Below are positions 6,001 through 10,323 of a stretch of 10,323 nt of DNA, piece after piece. Made by a program: the position numbers. Positions within the stretch are counted from its first letter, which is position 1. The number at the start of each line of letters is the position of its first letter. This DNA comes from a virus (lineage: Duplodnaviria; Heunggongvirae; Uroviricota; Caudoviricetes), in IMG/VR virus record IMGVR_UViG_2778260993_000005; one strand, written 5' to 3'.

Positions 6001-9000
6001 ATGGAAAAGTGGTAAATGCAGGCACAAAACAACCAGATAGTGTAAATATACAAAATACGGCAGGGAAATATTTAAAATATTCTCTGTTTGATTACGGCGA
6101 GTCCGGGTTAACAAATACAGAATTACGGGCACCGAGAAGTAATGAAATTGTCTCATATTATGACTATGCGAATGAGACAGCTTATTTTGTAAACACAAAA
6201 ACCAATCAAATTCTCTTTAGTGCAGATGGCGAAGGCGTGGTCACGACAGTGGGCGCTGATGGAAAAACGTATTCAAGACATGTTCCTGAAATCAGTGAAT
6301 ATATTTATGAAATTAAAATGAAGTCTGTAAACCCGCTAGACTCCACTATTGACACTGGTCTTTCTGCTGCAGATGTAACAGATATTCACGCCCGTCTGTC
6401 TTCTCTGGGCACAGGTAAAACTCAGGTTGGTGGCGGGGCAACAGCAGGCGGAGAAAACGCCACTGCTGTCGGTTACAACGCCATTGCAAACCATACGAAC
6501 AGTGTTGCTGTAGGGGCTAACTCTCAGACCACTCGCCCCGATGAAGTAAATGTGGGGAATCGTGTAATTGGTGGGCTTCGTGATGGTGTTCAGGCTGCGG
6601 ATGCCGCAACCTATGGTCAGTTAGAGCGCTATCGTATTGCAGAAGAGAATGCCCGTATTCAGGGTGATGCACAGACACTGAAGTCTGCTAATACCTACAC
6701 AGATAACCGGGTCAGTACCCTGGAGCGTAGTACTAATCAGCAATTCCGTCAGTTACGTGATGAGGTGGAGAAAAACCGTAAACGTGCAGATGCAGGTATT
6801 GCAGGAGCAATGGCGATGACTGCCATTCCTGTTGTTGAGGGTAAAACGTACTCCTTTGGTATGGCTGCAAGTAACTACCGTGATGAGCAGGCTATCGCAG
6901 CAGGTATGCACTTCCGCACCACTGAAAATTCTGCTGTACGTTTGAATGCTTCATGGGATACCCAGAACGGTTCAGGTGTTGCTGCGGGTATGTCTGTCGG
7001 CTGGTAATTTATTTTTTGCGGAGAACGCCAGCCGTGTTGGTTATCGGAAGCGTTCTCCGTCATCCTTCTGTCGCTGAAGACACAGCACAGTCACATTGTT
7101 CTTTTTTGTGGTGAGAGTGTGAGTGAAAAAATTCTCCGGTATATGCAGCGTGTGGTGAGAAATTCCCGCAACCCTGAATTTATGAATGAAGTTAAAGACG
7201 CCTGCTTTAAAAAGCAGGCGTTTTGTTTTGAGGCACCTGATGGCTTTCTGGTGCTGCGTTCTGTGCTCAGTGCTGATGGTATCCCTTATGTTCTGGTGTT
7301 GCTGGGCGTGTGTACGGGGAGTAACAGTGTTGAGCGTTATCTGCCGGAGGTGAAGACATTAACCCGTCTGGCTGGCGGACGTTGGGCTGAATTTCATACG
7401 GCAAGGCGGGGATTTATCCGGCTGGGAAAACGTCTGGGCTTTGAGCGAATGCCGGATGATGAGGATGGCTTCATGGTGTTCAGGATAGCGGTCTGACTGC
7501 CACAGTTTTCATCATCGTGTTTAAACCAACATTGCAATTCACATTCTGACCCTGCTCCGGCAGGTTTTTTTTATTATCCAGGGGGCCATTATGGGTGGAA
7601 GTAAAGGTGGTGGTGATACCAAAGTAAAACCAACAGCAGCGCAAATAGCACAGGAAGAAGTGGCCTGGAAAGGGTGGCAGGATTACAAAAATATCCTCCG
7701 CCCGGCTGAAGATAACTTCATGGAAAAGGTCGATGACCTGAACAGTGAGCAGCAGTACGACAATATTGCTGGCACCACAAATCTGGGGTATCAAAAACAG
7801 TTTGGCGAAGCGCGGAAGGAGCTGGCAAGTAATCTCACTCGGTCCGGTGTTGACCCGTCCAGTGGTCGCTTTAACGCGGTAATGAATGCGAACCAGAGTG
7901 ATCAGGTAACCGGGCAGATTGACACAACCACACGGGGGCAGGTATCGCAGGCAGATAAGTATGTTGCCGGGCTACAGGATGTTGCTGCTCTCGGTTCTGG
8001 TCAGAAGGCGGATGCGTTACAGAGTTTTAACTCTCTGGCAGACAGCAGTCTGGCAAAAGCTAAATCGGATGCACAGGCGGCGTTTACGAAACAGCAGGGG
8101 CGAGCCTCTCTTGTTGGCGCTGGTCTGGGTGCGGCAGGTGCATATGCGATGCATAAGGCTGGCGGTAGCGGAGGAAGTGGCGGTGCTAAAACACCTGGCA
8201 CTGGCGCTAATGCCATTCAGCATCAGGCTCAGAACTGGAGACTGTGATTATGGAGTACGGTAAATACGAAACACGTGCGAGATACGGTTATACCGGAGCA
8301 GCCCGCCCTCAGGGGGACTGGCAGACATCCGCAGCGCTGACCCGCCAGCAATACGACGACTGGCGCACCAGATATTTACCCCGTGTAGCAAGGCTGGCTG
8401 ACCTTGGGGAGAACAACAGTCTGATGAATCCACAGCTTGCACGGGTGGGAGGCCTTGCCACTTCCAGTCTCCGTACAGCGCAGATGGCGCAGGATAACCA
8501 GATGGCGAGATACGGGGTAAGCCGCCCGGATAATCCCGACAGTAATACGCTGGGGTTACGTAATGCCCTGGCAATAGCAGGTGCGAAAAATGGTATCCGT
8601 GAAGCCGAACAGGATCGCCAGATGAATATTCTGACGGGGGCTTCTGCACCGGCAAGACAGAAACTGAGTGTTGGCGGACAACTGGTGGCAGCGTAAGGGG
8701 GCAATATGGGATACGGTTTACTGGATATTGCAAATCAGTCGCGGCGTGAGGCATTACAGGGAATAAGTGACGCAGACAGACGACGTACAGAGATTGAGGC
8801 ATCAAATAAACAACTGGCTGCTCAACAGAAAGCTCAGAAAAAACAGAATATCGGTACGGGCATTGGTACGGGGGCCACTATCGGGGCGACTGTTGGTTCA
8901 GCAGTACCGGTAGTGGGGACAGCCGTCGGCGCTGTTGCTGGTGCAGTAATTGGCGGCATTGCAGGCGCTTTGTTTTAAGGAGTGGTGAATGAGCGGATTT

Positions 9001-10323
9001 GCACAGGGGTTACTTGCCGGATTCAGCACTGTTGACCAGGCAATGACCCGTCGTAAGGAGCTTGGTTTGCGAGAAGCACAGCTTGCTCAGCAACAGAAAA
9101 ATAACGAGCGCGATTTTGAATTTGCGCAGTCTCAGTTTGAACATAATAAAGACGTTGATCAGCGGAACTTTGATTACAGAGCCAAAGTTGATGACCGCAA
9201 TTACACACTGCAGGAAAGGGAGTTTAACGCCAACCAGAATTACCGGAATGCGTCGCTGGGGATGGAACAGCAACGACTCCAGTTGCAGAAATACAACCAG
9301 CGACGGCTTGAGTATAACGATATGCTGGCGCGCGATCAGCCTGTGATGGCGGCGCTGGGAAAAGCGATTGATGCGGGTGACCATGATGCGGCTTCTCATC
9401 TGTTCGGTAAATTATCGGACGCCAATCCGCTTAAGATGATGTCAACGGTAGGCTATGCTGCGAAAGCGGGTCAGGCCGTGAACAACCTGCAGAAAATCTT
9501 TGATGATAAGCCGGACAGGGCGATTGCTTCGCTGAATACCCCGGAAAATCTCGATGTGCTTTCCGGCGTGTTTGCCCCGGAACTACAACAGCGTATTGGC
9601 ATGCCTGATTCAACCGGGGAAAAAACGATAAAAGAGGCCAGGATTGGCAGTATCGTACCGGCGCAGCAGGAAGGGTACGTACTTATTGGCCTTGATCTCA
9701 CATACAGCGATGGCTCCACCGCGCATAAACCTGTAACAGAATACGGCAGTGCGCACCCTGATGATCAAACCGTGCTGGCGATACCCGTTGATAAGGCTAT
9801 CGCTCAGGTCAGGGATCGCAGCAAATTTGCAGAGATATCGAAAAATTATGGTTATTTTATGCCGAAGCAGCAGGGACTTTCTCTGAAAGAGCTTCAGAAG
9901 GGGGCCAGCAACGTAGCGGCGGACGCGATCAAGAATGGCGGTAATGCTCAGGCTGCGGTGGATGAATATTATGCTGCGACTGGTTCACAACCGCATCAAC
10001 AGAAAATTCAGCAACAAAAACTTCAGCAACAGGTTATCAACTGGGCGGGAGATGATCCTGATAAGCTGTCATTTGCCAGAAATGTAGCGGCCCGTCAGCC
10101 TGAAATGCTGGAACCTCAGAATCAGAAATTGCTGGAGAACGGGTATGCGAATTTTCTCCGTATTCAAAAGGCCAGGGGGGAACAGGCCAGAGATGAAAGT
10201 GCTTCATCTGCATCTCAGTTTATCCGTGGACTGAAACAGAATTACGGTAAGCGTACAGCCTGAACCGTCTGGTCAGAATCTGACGAATTAGACAAAGTGG
10301 TGTCCACCAAATAAGTAGTGGGA

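What the first reader, a model, noticed from the sequence alone, without database searches (positions are those of the whole stretch)
7591..10263. Coupled four-gene operon of low-complexity proteins with no recognisable family
Four ORFs (218, 148, 90 and 424 aa) are packed with overlapping or near-abutting stops and starts and good RBSs, directly after a terminator. They are Gly/Ala/Gln/Asn-rich; one has a C-terminal glycine-zipper membrane segment and one is largely coiled coil. Their position after the morons is unusual for virion structural genes in a lambdoid late operon. Candidates are virion internal/ejection proteins of a non-lambda module, a second mosaic module, or a non-structural system. 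The 218-aa N-terminus (MGGSKGGG...) superficially resembles the gpJ N-terminus (MGKGSSKG...), but nothing downstream does.
Basis: partly seen in the sequence, partly recalled or inferred. Interest (0 to 1): 0.55.

Follow-up and report, generated by a model that had tools for sequence, protein, structure and literature searches.

The report
Stx-phage internal (ejection) protein cassette
These four genes are conserved, virion-packaged proteins of short-tailed Shiga-toxin phages, most likely part of the set injected into the cell to carry the DNA and a giant companion protein across the envelope; the genes were already catalogued, but their role is still unproven.

Summary
The four ORFs are real and sit at the stated coordinates. 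The window is not a lambda-type tail operon. It is the late region of a phi24B/933W/Sp5-type short-tailed Stx prophage. The ORFs correspond to Sp5 ORF76-79 and phi24B gp51, gp50, gp49 and gp48.

In published work all four were detected in purified virions, at roughly 20-40 copies for three of them. None was located in the cryo-EM map. ORF79 is essential after DNA packaging.

Here I show that the unit is larger than four genes. A fifth gene (7119-7496) precedes it and a 1,350-3,130-aa polyvalent protein follows it. This order holds in 37 diverged viral loci from Enterobacterales, Aeromonas and Vibrionaceae. In three relatives inspected gene by gene, no lom or adhesin moron interrupts it.

- The 90-aa protein matches the C-terminus of P22 ejection protein gp7 (hhalign probability 95-96%).
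- The 218-aa protein matches gp7 weakly but collinearly.
- The N-terminal domain of the 424-aa family occurs fused to gp20-like and gp16-like ejection modules.
- No match was found to T7 or N4 ejection proteins, or to any solved fold.

The best reading is a divergent podovirus ejection-protein cassette. In this window ISEc8 has inserted at 10247. That replaces the last two codons of gene four and separates it from whatever followed.

The parts
7119..7496 (+). 125-aa ORF (Sp5 ORF75 / phi24B gp52 homologue). It is a conserved first gene of the cassette that the finding did not include.
   Evidence: PHROG 610, unknown function. A homologue precedes the 218-aa gene in 41 of the 42 related loci that hold one, and was found in 59 loci. 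It has one hydrophobic stretch (KD19 1.74). It is not among the proteins listed in the phi24B virion proteome. No Pfam or PDB match.
7551..7572 (+). Terminator-like hairpin (CCTGC-TCCG-GCAGG followed by T8) in the 94-nt spacer before the 218-aa gene.
   Evidence: 3 sites found, 3.3 expected by chance. In most non-Stx relatives the 125-aa and 218-aa genes lie within about 10 nt of each other, with no such spacer.
7591..8247 (+). 218-aa protein (Sp5 ORF76 / phi24B gp51). Candidate counterpart of P22 ejection protein gp7.
   Evidence: PHROG 611, and weak PHROG 8003 'virion structural protein' at 2e-9. About 22 copies per virion by the phi24B authors' estimate, not located in the map. hhalign against the gp7 family gives Prob 23-50%, E 1.7e-4 to 8.7e-4, collinear over 4-196 vs 23-213. 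AF2 model is all-helical with pLDDT 48.8. dN/dS 0.00-0.09 among Stx-type relatives, 0.17 against a more distant one.
8250..8696 (+). 148-aa basic protein (Sp5 ORF77 / phi24B gp50).
   Evidence: PHROG 596. About 36-40 copies per virion estimated, not located in the map. Conserved in the same position in related loci. No match to any known family.
8706..8978 (+). 90-aa protein with a C-terminal glycine-zipper membrane segment (Sp5 ORF78 / phi24B gp49, annotated 'bacteriocin'). Homologous to the C-terminal part of P22 gp7.
   Evidence: hhalign against the gp7 family gives Prob 95-96%, E 8e-9 to 3.5e-8, ending at the exact C-termini. Controls score at most 24.1 against 51-55 for the real alignment. 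KD19 maximum 1.95. Pfam Gly-zipper and Bacteriocin_IIc hits are below threshold. 6 PSMs in virions.
8989..10263 (+). 424-aa protein (Sp5 ORF79 / phi24B gp48; native length 421 aa). Residues encoded beyond 10246 come from the IS.
   Evidence: PHROG 601. Essential in Sp5, with DNA still packaged in the deletion mutant. About 30 copies per virion. 70 clusters at 50% identity among 1.8 billion representatives. AF2 pLDDT 88 with a 124-residue helix. No PDB fold match. Its N-terminal domain is fused to gp20-like and gp16-like modules in P0152.
10247..10323 (+). Left end of an IS66-family element (ISEc8) inserted at the 3' end of the 424-aa gene.
   Evidence: This stretch matches 9,766 places in 3,422 E. 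coli genomes and lies directly upstream of IS66 tnpA/tnpB and the ISEc8 transposase gene. Intact phages diverge from the window at 10246 and continue with the giant gene.

Best explanation
The four ORFs are the middle of a six-gene internal-virion (ejection) protein cassette of a phi24B/933W/Sp5-type short-tailed Stx prophage. The full order is 125 aa, 218 aa, 148 aa, 90 aa, 421 aa, then a roughly 2,800-aa polyvalent protein.

Proposed mechanism:
- The 218-, 148-, 90- and 421-aa proteins are packaged inside the T=9 head together with the giant protein.
- When the tail needle is released they leave through the portal-adaptor-nozzle channel.
- They extend the roughly 22-nm tail across the envelope.
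- The gp7-like 218-aa and 90-aa proteins insert their Gly/Ala-rich C-terminal segments into membrane.
- The 421-aa protein supplies an elongated periplasmic element. Its predicted continuous N-terminal helix would be about 185 A long.
- The giant polyvalent protein and the DNA follow.

Shown, partly in the literature for orthologues: virion association; absence from the resolved shell and tail; the post-packaging essentiality of ORF79 and ORF80; conserved synteny; purifying selection; remote homology to P22 gp7; and fusion of the 421-aa family's N-terminal domain with gp20-like and gp16-like modules.

Inferred only: ejection itself, membrane insertion, and which protein does what.

In this window ISEc8 has replaced the last two codons of the fourth gene and separates it from whatever lay downstream. 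This copy of the prophage may therefore be unable to make infectious particles.
For: Identity:
- The block is 100% identical to phage phiSTEC1589-Stx1c and 95% to phi24B. 186 of 192 matching phage records carry at least 80% of it.
- Protein sizes map onto Sp5 ORF76-79 (218/148/83/421 aa) followed by ORF80 (2,793 aa), and onto phi24B gp51, gp50, gp49, gp48 and gp47.

Virion association (phi24B preprint, supplement):
- PSMs in the batch digest were gp48 179, gp50 83, gp51 82 and gp49 6, against 101 for the portal.
- gp48 and gp51 each peak in a few adjacent gel slices.
- The authors estimate about 30, 36-40 and 22 copies for gp48, gp50 and gp51, with structure-based abundance 'ND'.
- Diffuse density in the adaptor lumen disappears in ejected particles, and gp47 is proposed to be an ejection protein.

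Genetics (PMC5155283):
- Deletions of ORF79 and ORF80 abolish plaques and lysogens but leave DNA packaging intact.
- Deletion of ORF76 sharply reduces lysogenisation.

Synteny:
- The order 125-218-148-90-424-giant (1,350-3,130 aa where complete) holds in 37 diverged IMG/VR loci, a Vibrio phage and metagenome contigs.
- The hosts are Enterobacterales, Aeromonas and Vibrionaceae.
- The giant protein carries LPD38, LPD5, LPD1 and MuF_C domains.

Links to known ejection proteins:
- The 90-aa profile against the P22 gp7 family gives Prob 95-96%, E down to 8e-9. Reversed and 30 column-shuffled controls score at most 24.1 against 51-55.
- The 218-aa profile against gp7 gives Prob 23-50%. The alignment is collinear from the mature gp7 N-terminus, with controls at most 19.5 against 32.8-35.
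- P0152 (1,386 aa) joins a 424-family N-terminal domain (E 2e-17) to regions matching P22-like gp20-type and gp16-type genes (gp16: 36% identity, E 2e-77).

Other features typical of ejection proteins:
- None of the four has a cysteine.
- The 218-aa protein does not fold confidently as a monomer despite a 45-sequence alignment.
Against: - Anti-tail-fibre antibody did not bind particles of the ORF79 or ORF80 deletion mutants. The authors concluded these genes act in tail formation, not ejection.
- Single deletions of ORF77 and ORF78 were not among the mutants that lost plaque formation or lysogenisation, and the ORF76 deletion still formed plaques. P22 gp7, gp20 and gp16 are each essential (my own knowledge).
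- The 218-aa protein does not hit Pfam P22_gp7 at E <= 0.1, although that model is in the library. Its hhalign probability is below 50%.
- The 90-aa match covers a Gly/Ala-rich segment. Compositional bias could inflate it, though the controls argue against that.
- No sequence similarity to T7 gp13-16 or N4 gp51-53.
- No fold match for the 424-aa model.
- The phi24B authors classed gp49 as a contaminant.
- Nobody has shown that any of the four leaves the capsid or enters a membrane.
Confidence: 0.65

Rival explanations
1. They are tail assembly or tail completion factors, such as a plug, a channel-lining component or an assembly chaperone. On this reading they are needed to build or stabilise the short tail on the filled head, and they do not form a trans-envelope conduit.
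For: - ORF79 and ORF80 deletion particles have packaged DNA but do not bind the anti-tail-fibre antibody. The authors assigned both genes to tail formation.
- The genes lie in the tail half of the late operon.
- Unassigned density sits in the adaptor lumen of intact virions.
Against: - All resolved tail density in phi24B is accounted for by the portal, two adaptors, nozzle, lateral fibres and needle. gp48, gp50 and gp51 are marked 'ND' despite an estimated 20-40 copies each.
- The links to P22 gp7, gp20 and gp16 point to ejection proteins.
- Internal proteins that thread the channel could also be needed for tail stability, so the phenotype does not separate the two readings.
Confidence: 0.15
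2. They are head-internal core or chaperone proteins. They would organise or condense the giant polyvalent protein, and perhaps the DNA end, inside the capsid. They would stay behind or be released passively, with no role in envelope penetration.
For: - Strict co-occurrence with the giant gene.
- Estimated copy numbers are similar to that of gp47.
- How gp47 is organised in the head is listed as an open question by the phi24B authors.
- Only the 90-aa protein has a clearly membrane-grade hydrophobic segment.
Against: - The 90-aa protein matches the C-terminal Gly-rich hydrophobic end of P22 gp7.
- A 424-family domain is fused to gp20-like and gp16-like ejection modules.
- The density in the tail lumen disappears on ejection.
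Confidence: 0.12
3. They are a non-structural accessory system, for example a bacteriocin- or holin-like membrane peptide with partners, or a transcription factor. This is what some database annotations suggest.
For: - Several RefSeq phage records label the 90-aa homologue 'bacteriocin'.
- There is a weak Pfam Bacteriocin_IIc hit (17.3 bits).
- The phi24B record notes similarity of gp48 to a transcription initiation factor and to seryl-tRNA synthetase.
Against: - The Bacteriocin_IIc hit is well below the 27.1-bit cut-off.
- Three of the four proteins are abundant in CsCl-purified virions.
- ORF79 is essential for infectivity.
- The set is fixed inside the structural module of lytic Vibrio phages and many prophages.
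Confidence: 0.03

Closest known systems
Sp5 ORF76-ORF79 (ECs1238-1241) and phi24B gp51, gp50, gp49, gp48 of short-tailed Stx phages (Sepvirinae)
   Same: These are orthologues. They have the same sizes and order, the block is 95-100% identical at DNA level to the best-matching records, and in intact phages the same giant gene follows.
   Different: - In the window the fourth gene ends in 5 IS-derived codons and the giant gene is displaced by ISEc8.
- The 90-aa protein has a 7-residue insertion relative to the 83-aa Sp5 and phi24B form.
- A YadA-like adhesin gene lies upstream that phi24B lacks.
Phage P22 ejection (E) proteins gp7, gp20 and gp16, with gp14, encoded directly after the tail needle gene
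   Same: - A run of small-to-large genes follows the needle gene.
- The 90-aa protein aligns with gp7 residues 187-229, up to the shared C-terminal ...G(S/A)LF.
- The 218-aa protein aligns collinearly with mature gp7 and is of similar length.
- A natural fusion joins the 424-family N-terminal domain to gp20-like and gp16-like regions.
   Different: - Pfam P22_gp7 is not hit.
- There is no detectable similarity between the 424-aa protein and gp20 or gp16, between the 125-aa protein and gp14, or between the 148-aa protein and anything.
- The set has five small genes instead of three or four.
- The last member is a roughly 2,800-aa polyvalent protein rather than the 609-aa gp16.
- ORF76-78 are individually dispensable for plaque formation.
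N4/DEV (Schitoviridae) ejection cassette, gp52-gp51-gp50, in which two small channel-forming proteins accompany a giant packaged protein
   Same: - The capsid protein is of the N4 family and the head is T=9.
- A giant virion-packaged protein of about 2,800 to 3,500 aa is encoded next to small helical proteins. Those N4 proteins behave as membrane proteins and are not resolved in symmetric maps.
   Different: - No sequence similarity to N4 gp51, gp52 or gp53.
- The giant protein is a polyvalent LPD/MuF_C protein, not an RNA polymerase.
- The gene number and order differ.
T7 internal core proteins gp14, gp15 and gp16
   Same: The functional analogy only: helical, oligomerising proteins stored in the head that rebuild as a trans-envelope tube. 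The position between tail genes is similar.
   Different: - No sequence similarity.
- No lytic transglycosylase domain was detected in the four.

Membership tests
Sepvirinae (phi24B/933W/Sp5-type) late-region genes ORF76-79 | High sequence identity to the reference phage genes | tested here: met
   2,847 of 2,924 bases are 100% identical to PQ600364 and 95% to phi24B. 186 records cover at least 80% of the block. The 424-aa protein is 93% identical by tblastn to several O157:H7 Stx-phage records, including Stx2 II and EDL933-Stx.
Sepvirinae (phi24B/933W/Sp5-type) late-region genes ORF76-79 | Same gene order, flanked by nozzle, needle and lom upstream and the giant ORF downstream | tested here: met
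   Upstream synteny is present in the window. The downstream giant gene is present in intact phages, but the window breaks off in an ISEc8 end at 10247.
Podovirus ejection / internal virion proteins (functional class) | Present in purified virions but not part of the resolved capsid or tail | not testable with these tools
   Reported for the phi24B orthologues. gp48, gp50 and gp51 are estimated at about 20-40 copies with structure 'ND', and gp49 gave 6 PSMs. This comes from the literature and was not tested here.
Podovirus ejection / internal virion proteins (functional class) | Required for infectivity but not for head assembly or DNA packaging | not testable with these tools
   Sp5 data (literature, not tested here) fit ORF79 and ORF80. 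The ORF76 deletion shows only reduced lysogenisation, and ORF77 and ORF78 are not among the essential genes. Taken together the published data are mixed.
Podovirus ejection / internal virion proteins (functional class) | Released from the particle with the DNA and recovered in the host envelope | not testable with these tools
   No data exist. The only hint is unassigned adaptor-lumen density that disappears in ejected phi24B particles.
Podovirus ejection / internal virion proteins (functional class) | Membrane-active or hydrophobic segment in at least the small members | tested here: met
   The 90-aa protein has a KD19 maximum of 1.95 over its glycine zipper. The 218-aa protein has only a weak Gly/Ala-rich C-terminal stretch (0.82). 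The 148-aa and 424-aa proteins have none.
Podovirus ejection / internal virion proteins (functional class) | Encoded as a block next to the tail genes, ending in the largest protein | tested here: met
   The order is conserved in 37 diverged loci, a Vibrio phage and metagenome contigs, and ends in a 1,350-3,130-aa ORF where the sequence is complete.
P22 gp7 family (Pfam PF25688, P22_gp7) | Match to the family HMM above the gathering score | tested here: not met
   Neither the 218-aa nor the 90-aa protein hits at E <= 0.1. The model is in the library and scores 428 bits on P22 gp7 itself.
P22 gp7 family (Pfam PF25688, P22_gp7) | Profile-profile similarity over the full length | tested here: inconclusive
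   - 90-aa protein: Prob 95-96%, but only over gp7 residues 165/187-229.
- 218-aa protein: Prob 23-50%, E 1.7e-4 to 8.7e-4, collinear over 4-196 vs 23-213.
- Both exceed the reversed and column-shuffled controls.
T7 gp14/gp15/gp16 and N4 gp51/gp52 ejection proteins | Sequence or fold similarity | tested here: not met
   - hhalign probabilities are at most 2.7% for all pairs.
- PDB profile searches are empty.
- The fold of the 218-aa protein could not be tested because its model has pLDDT 48.8.
Class II bacteriocins (Pfam PF10439), the source of the 'bacteriocin' annotation | HMM match above threshold | tested here: not met
   17.3 bits against a cut-off of 27.1, covering only the glycine zipper. 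A double-glycine leader was not examined. No transporter or immunity gene is apparent beside it: the neighbouring genes are the conserved virion-protein genes.
Large polyvalent proteins (LPD-domain proteins), the downstream partner | LPD domains in a protein of more than 1,000 aa next to the cassette | tested here: met
   LPD38, LPD5, LPD1 and MuF_C in PQ600364; LPD38 in the Vibrio phage; LPD38 and LPD3 in metagenome relatives. This gene is not inside the window.

The most novel reading that the evidence does not exclude
The cassette is a distinct, enlarged descendant of the P22-type E-protein set, specialised to translocate a roughly 300-kDa polyvalent effector as well as the DNA. On this reading:
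- gp7-like functions are split between the 218-aa and 90-aa proteins.
- The 421-aa protein forms the periplasm-spanning element through its predicted helix of about 185 A.
- The 125-aa protein is a non-virion assembly factor.

This would give Stx phages a protein-delivery apparatus analogous to that of N4 but evolved separately. It would also give a handle on how the giant protein is packaged and ejected.
Probability: 0.3. Interest if true: 0.6.

Novelty: new variant of a known kind. Interest (0 to 1): 0.4.

Why it matters
Short-tailed Stx phages spread Shiga toxin genes among E. coli, yet how they cross the envelope is unknown. The phi24B structural study lists the organisation of the giant packaged protein as an open question.

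Three results narrow the problem:
- These small proteins form a fixed cassette with the giant protein.
- Two of them are tied to P22 gp7.
- The 421-aa family is tied by a natural fusion to gp20-like and gp16-like modules.

Several 'hypothetical' or misannotated genes ('bacteriocin', 'transcription factor?', 'portal protein') thereby become specific candidates for the ejection machinery, with clear experiments to test them.

The work also corrects a likely misclassification of gp49 as a contaminant. For this particular prophage, the ISEc8 insertion suggests that the module is disrupted.

The genes themselves, their virion association and the essentiality of ORF79 were already published. The gain is in interpretation, and it is incremental.

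Tried and rejected
- **Pfam scans.** The four proteins and 50 members of the 424 family gave nothing above threshold.
- **PDB sequence-profile searches.** The 424, 218, 148 and 125 families gave nothing.
- **AF2 of the 218-aa protein.** pLDDT was 48.8, too low for a fold search.
- **First large-database search with the 424-aa protein.** It was saturated by near-identical E. 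coli entries and gave no distant relatives.
- **The search for related loci with the 424-family alignment.** It failed because no stretch was conserved enough.
- **hhalign against T7 gp13-16, N4 gp51-53, and P22 gp14, gp20 and gp16.** No signal.
- **A fold or family for the 125-aa protein.** None found.
- **The 'bacteriocin' and 'transcription factor' readings.** Rejected.
- **Annotation of PQ600364.** It labels these genes 'portal protein' and 'N4-family major capsid protein', the YadA-like adhesin 'terminase large subunit', and Lom 'virulence determinant Bor'. I set it aside as unreliable.
- **My first reading of the phi24B supplement.** I took gp48 to have been dismissed as a contaminant. 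The abundance sheet shows it is listed as a candidate structural protein, and only gp49 was dismissed.

Full report
**What is in the sequence.**
The four ORFs exist as described: 7591-8247 (218 aa), 8250-8696 (148 aa from the ATG), 8706-8978 (90 aa) and 8989-10263 (424 aa). They are tightly spaced behind GGAG-type ribosome-binding sites. A hairpin followed by T8 lies at 7551-7572, although such sites are no more frequent here than in shuffled sequence. The proteins are Ala/Gly/Gln-rich and none contains cysteine. Only the 90-aa protein has a clearly membrane-grade hydrophobic segment, its C-terminal glycine zipper. dN/dS against related phages is 0.00-0.23 for every gene.

**What the region is.**
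The block is 100% identical to Escherichia phage phiSTEC1589-Stx1c and 95% identical to phi24B. It occurs in 192 phage records, nearly all of them Stx-converting phages. These are short-tailed phages of the Sepvirinae, not lambda-type siphoviruses.

The window genes map as follows:
- 375-2066 and 2063-3331 correspond to the phi24B nozzle (gp57) and needle (gp56).
- 4338-5072 is Lom.
- 5796-7007 is a YadA-like adhesin that phi24B lacks.
- The four ORFs are Sp5 ORF76-79 (218/148/83/421 aa), followed in Sp5 by ORF80 of 2,793 aa. They are also phi24B gp51, gp50, gp49 and gp48, followed by gp47 of 2,811 aa.

**The window's 3' end.**
From 10247 the sequence is the left end of ISEc8, an IS66-family element. 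That stretch occurs at 9,766 places in E. coli genomes, directly upstream of IS66 tnpA/tnpB and the transposase gene. Intact phages read ...QNYAQ-stop, then a terminator-like sequence, then the giant gene. The window reads ...QNYGKRTA-stop. The 424-aa length is therefore an insertion artefact, and the native protein is 421 aa.

**What is already published.**
Mondal et al. 2016 (PMC5155283) deleted each Sp5 late gene in frame.
- The ORF79 and ORF80 deletions gave no plaques and no lysogens, yet DNase-resistant phage DNA was at wild-type level.
- Heads looked normal, but the anti-tail-fibre antibody did not bind them. The authors assigned both genes to tail formation.
- The ORF76 deletion still formed plaques but lysogenised very poorly.
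- ORF77 and ORF78 were not among the essential genes.

The 2026 phi24B cryo-EM and proteomics preprint reports the following.
- The head is T=9, and every resolved tail density is assigned to the portal, two adaptors, nozzle, lateral fibres or needle.
- Its supplement records 179, 83, 82 and 6 PSMs for gp48, gp50, gp51 and gp49 in the batch digest, against 101 for the portal.
- The authors estimate about 30, 36-40 and 22 copies for gp48, gp50 and gp51, with structure-based abundance 'ND'.
- gp49 was set aside as a 'bacteriocin' contaminant, on the basis of its annotation.
- gp47 is proposed as a packaged ejection protein.
- Diffuse adaptor-lumen density disappears in emptied particles.

**New here: the unit is larger and old.**
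Vibrio phage 1.205.O encodes proteins of 131, 201, 117, 77 and 442 aa and then one of 3,130 aa, directly after its nozzle and fibre genes. Pairwise E-values to the four window proteins are 9e-16, 7e-6, 8e-7 and 3e-12. Metagenome contigs show the same pattern, ending in LPD38 or LPD3 proteins of 2,000-2,350 aa.

A scan of IMG/VR with the 218-aa family returned 80 loci. In all 37 diverged ones (47-58% identity) the order 125-218-148-90-424 is kept. In nearly all that extend far enough, a very large ORF follows, 1,350-2,450 aa where it is complete.

Several consequences follow:
- The upstream 125-aa ORF (7119-7496) is part of the unit. In most relatives it ends within about 10 nt of the 218-aa start. 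Only the Stx lineage has the 94-nt spacer with the hairpin.
- The hosts are Enterobacterales, Aeromonas and Vibrionaceae.
- The giant protein carries LPD38, LPD5, LPD1 and MuF_C domains.
In the relatives inspected gene by gene the cassette follows the tail genes without lom or an adhesin, so these have been inserted into a single structural module.

**New here: links to known ejection proteins.**
Direct Pfam and PDB searches found nothing. Profile-profile comparison found two links to the P22 gp7 family.
- The 90-aa family aligns with the C-terminal 43-65 residues of gp7, at Prob 95-96% and E 8e-9 to 3.5e-8. Both proteins end ...G(S/A)LF. A reversed profile scored 21.0 and 30 column shuffles scored at most 24.1, against 51-55 for the real alignment.
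- The 218-aa family aligns with gp7 from just after its OpdA cleavage site (annotated), at Prob 23-50% and E 1.7e-4 to 8.7e-4. The best control scored 19.5 against 32.8-35. With a greedy setting the alignment is collinear over nearly the full length of both proteins.

An exhaustive search with the 424-aa protein found only 70 clusters at 50% identity. One of them, P0152 (1,386 aa), has three parts:
- Residues 1-264 are homologous to the 424-aa protein (E 2e-17).
- Residues from about 330 to 720 match the gp20-position gene of P22-like phages.
- Residues 911-1380 are 36% identical to P22 gp16 (E 2e-77).

This natural fusion places the 424-family domain in one polypeptide with two recognised ejection modules, in the same order as the genes.

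**Structure.**
AF2 models the 424-aa protein confidently (pLDDT 88). The model has one 124-residue helix (5-128), a helical region, a small beta domain (213-266) and C-terminal helices. No solved or viral predicted structure resembles it beyond long-helix matches and its own family. The 218-aa protein is predicted all-helical but without a confident fold (pLDDT 48.8), despite a diverse 45-sequence alignment. That fits a protein that folds only on oligomerisation, but it proves nothing.

**Interpretation.**
The most economical reading is a divergent podovirus ejection-protein cassette. It is functionally analogous to T7 gp14-16, P22 gp7/20/16 and N4 gp52/51/50, and it is partly homologous to the P22 set. 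On this reading the proteins are stored in the head, are released through the tail after needle loss, and rebuild as a conduit for the giant polyvalent protein and the DNA. The assignment of roles is inference:
- The gp7-like proteins go into membrane.
- The 421-aa protein acts as a periplasmic element of about 185 A (124 residues at 1.5 A per residue).
- The 125-aa protein, which is not in the virion proteome, may act as an assembly factor.

**Weak points.**
- The Sp5 tail-antibody result favours a tail-assembly role, or at least shows that the proteins are needed for a stable tail.
- ORF76-78 are individually dispensable for plaque formation.
- The 218-aa to gp7 link is below conventional significance.
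- No experiment shows release from the capsid or membrane insertion.

I put 0.65 on the ejection reading, 0.15 on a tail-assembly role, 0.12 on a non-ejected head-core role and 0.03 on a non-structural system.

**Novelty.**
The genes, their virion association and the essentiality of ORF79 are already known. What is added:
- the true extent of the cassette and its age;
- the gp7 homology of the protein annotated 'bacteriocin';
- the fusion evidence for the 421-aa family;
- the negative results against T7, N4 and solved folds;
- the ISEc8 disruption in this copy.

This is a new variant of a known kind. It is of moderate interest, mainly because Stx phages matter medically and their entry mechanism is unsolved.

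Noticed in passing
window 10247-10323: This is the left end of an IS66-family element (ISEc8), inserted two codons before the native stop of the fourth gene. It replaces ...AQ with ...GKRTA and separates the cassette from the essential giant gene that follows in intact phages. This prophage copy may be defective. No complete E. coli genome in the collection showed this junction among the top hits.
   Followed up: partly
window 5796-7007 (low-GC stretch from about 5250 to 6250): A 403-aa YadA-like trimeric autotransporter adhesin (YadA_head and YadA_anchor domains, with a signal-peptide-like N-terminus) lies between lom and the 125-aa gene. GC falls to 0.34-0.41 here. phi24B has no gene at this position, but PQ600364 does. 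It looks like an extra moron.
   Followed up: no
L001 (PQ600364.1) 12397-16855: Product names in this GenBank record look misassigned across the region. The 218-aa and 125-aa homologues are labelled 'portal protein', the 90-aa protein 'N4-family major capsid protein', the YadA-like adhesin 'terminase large subunit', Lom 'virulence determinant Bor', and the gp54 homologue 'endopeptidase Rz'.
   Followed up: partly
L006 10001-14161 (NCBI CP195798.1) and L007: A 1,386-aa protein (P0152) fuses a 424-family N-terminal domain to gp20-like and gp16-like ejection modules. It sits in an island with an integrase, AlpA-type regulators, a Bro-N protein and a primase (Zn_Ribbon_Prim/Toprim_3/DUF927), and no capsid or tail genes lie within 10 kb. 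That gene content resembles a phage satellite, which raises the possibility of a satellite-encoded ejection protein. It was not found in E. coli complete genomes.
   Followed up: partly
L005 5556-6407: In one metagenomic relative, two opposite-strand genes are inserted between the 424-aa homologue and the giant LPD38 gene. One has a Rap1a domain (T6SS immunity-like). In other relatives the gap at this junction varies from 33 nt to 2.5 kb, which suggests a recurrent moron insertion site.
   Followed up: no
window 8706-8978: The 90-aa protein has a 7-residue insertion (AVPVVGT) within the glycine zipper, relative to the 83-aa Sp5 and phi24B form. Its dS against phi24B is 0.44, compared with 0.03-0.05 for the two genes before it, which points to local mosaicism. 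Homologues in some loci (for example L066, L067, L070, L074, L093) are 123-165 aa.
   Followed up: no
window 8250-8330: The E. coli-lineage 148-aa protein carries an N-terminal insertion of about 19 residues (YETRARYGYTGAARPQGDW). It is absent from the four relatives aligned, and most homologues are only about 126 aa long.
   Followed up: no
window 7119-7496: The 125-aa family is conserved across all the relatives. Its sequence pattern (AFxF...VL.P...PYV.VWLG...RYLP...LTR..GGRW.EF.T.RKGF.R.A.RLGFER) suggests a small alpha/beta domain. It matches no Pfam or PDB family and was not detected in phi24B virions.
   Followed up: partly
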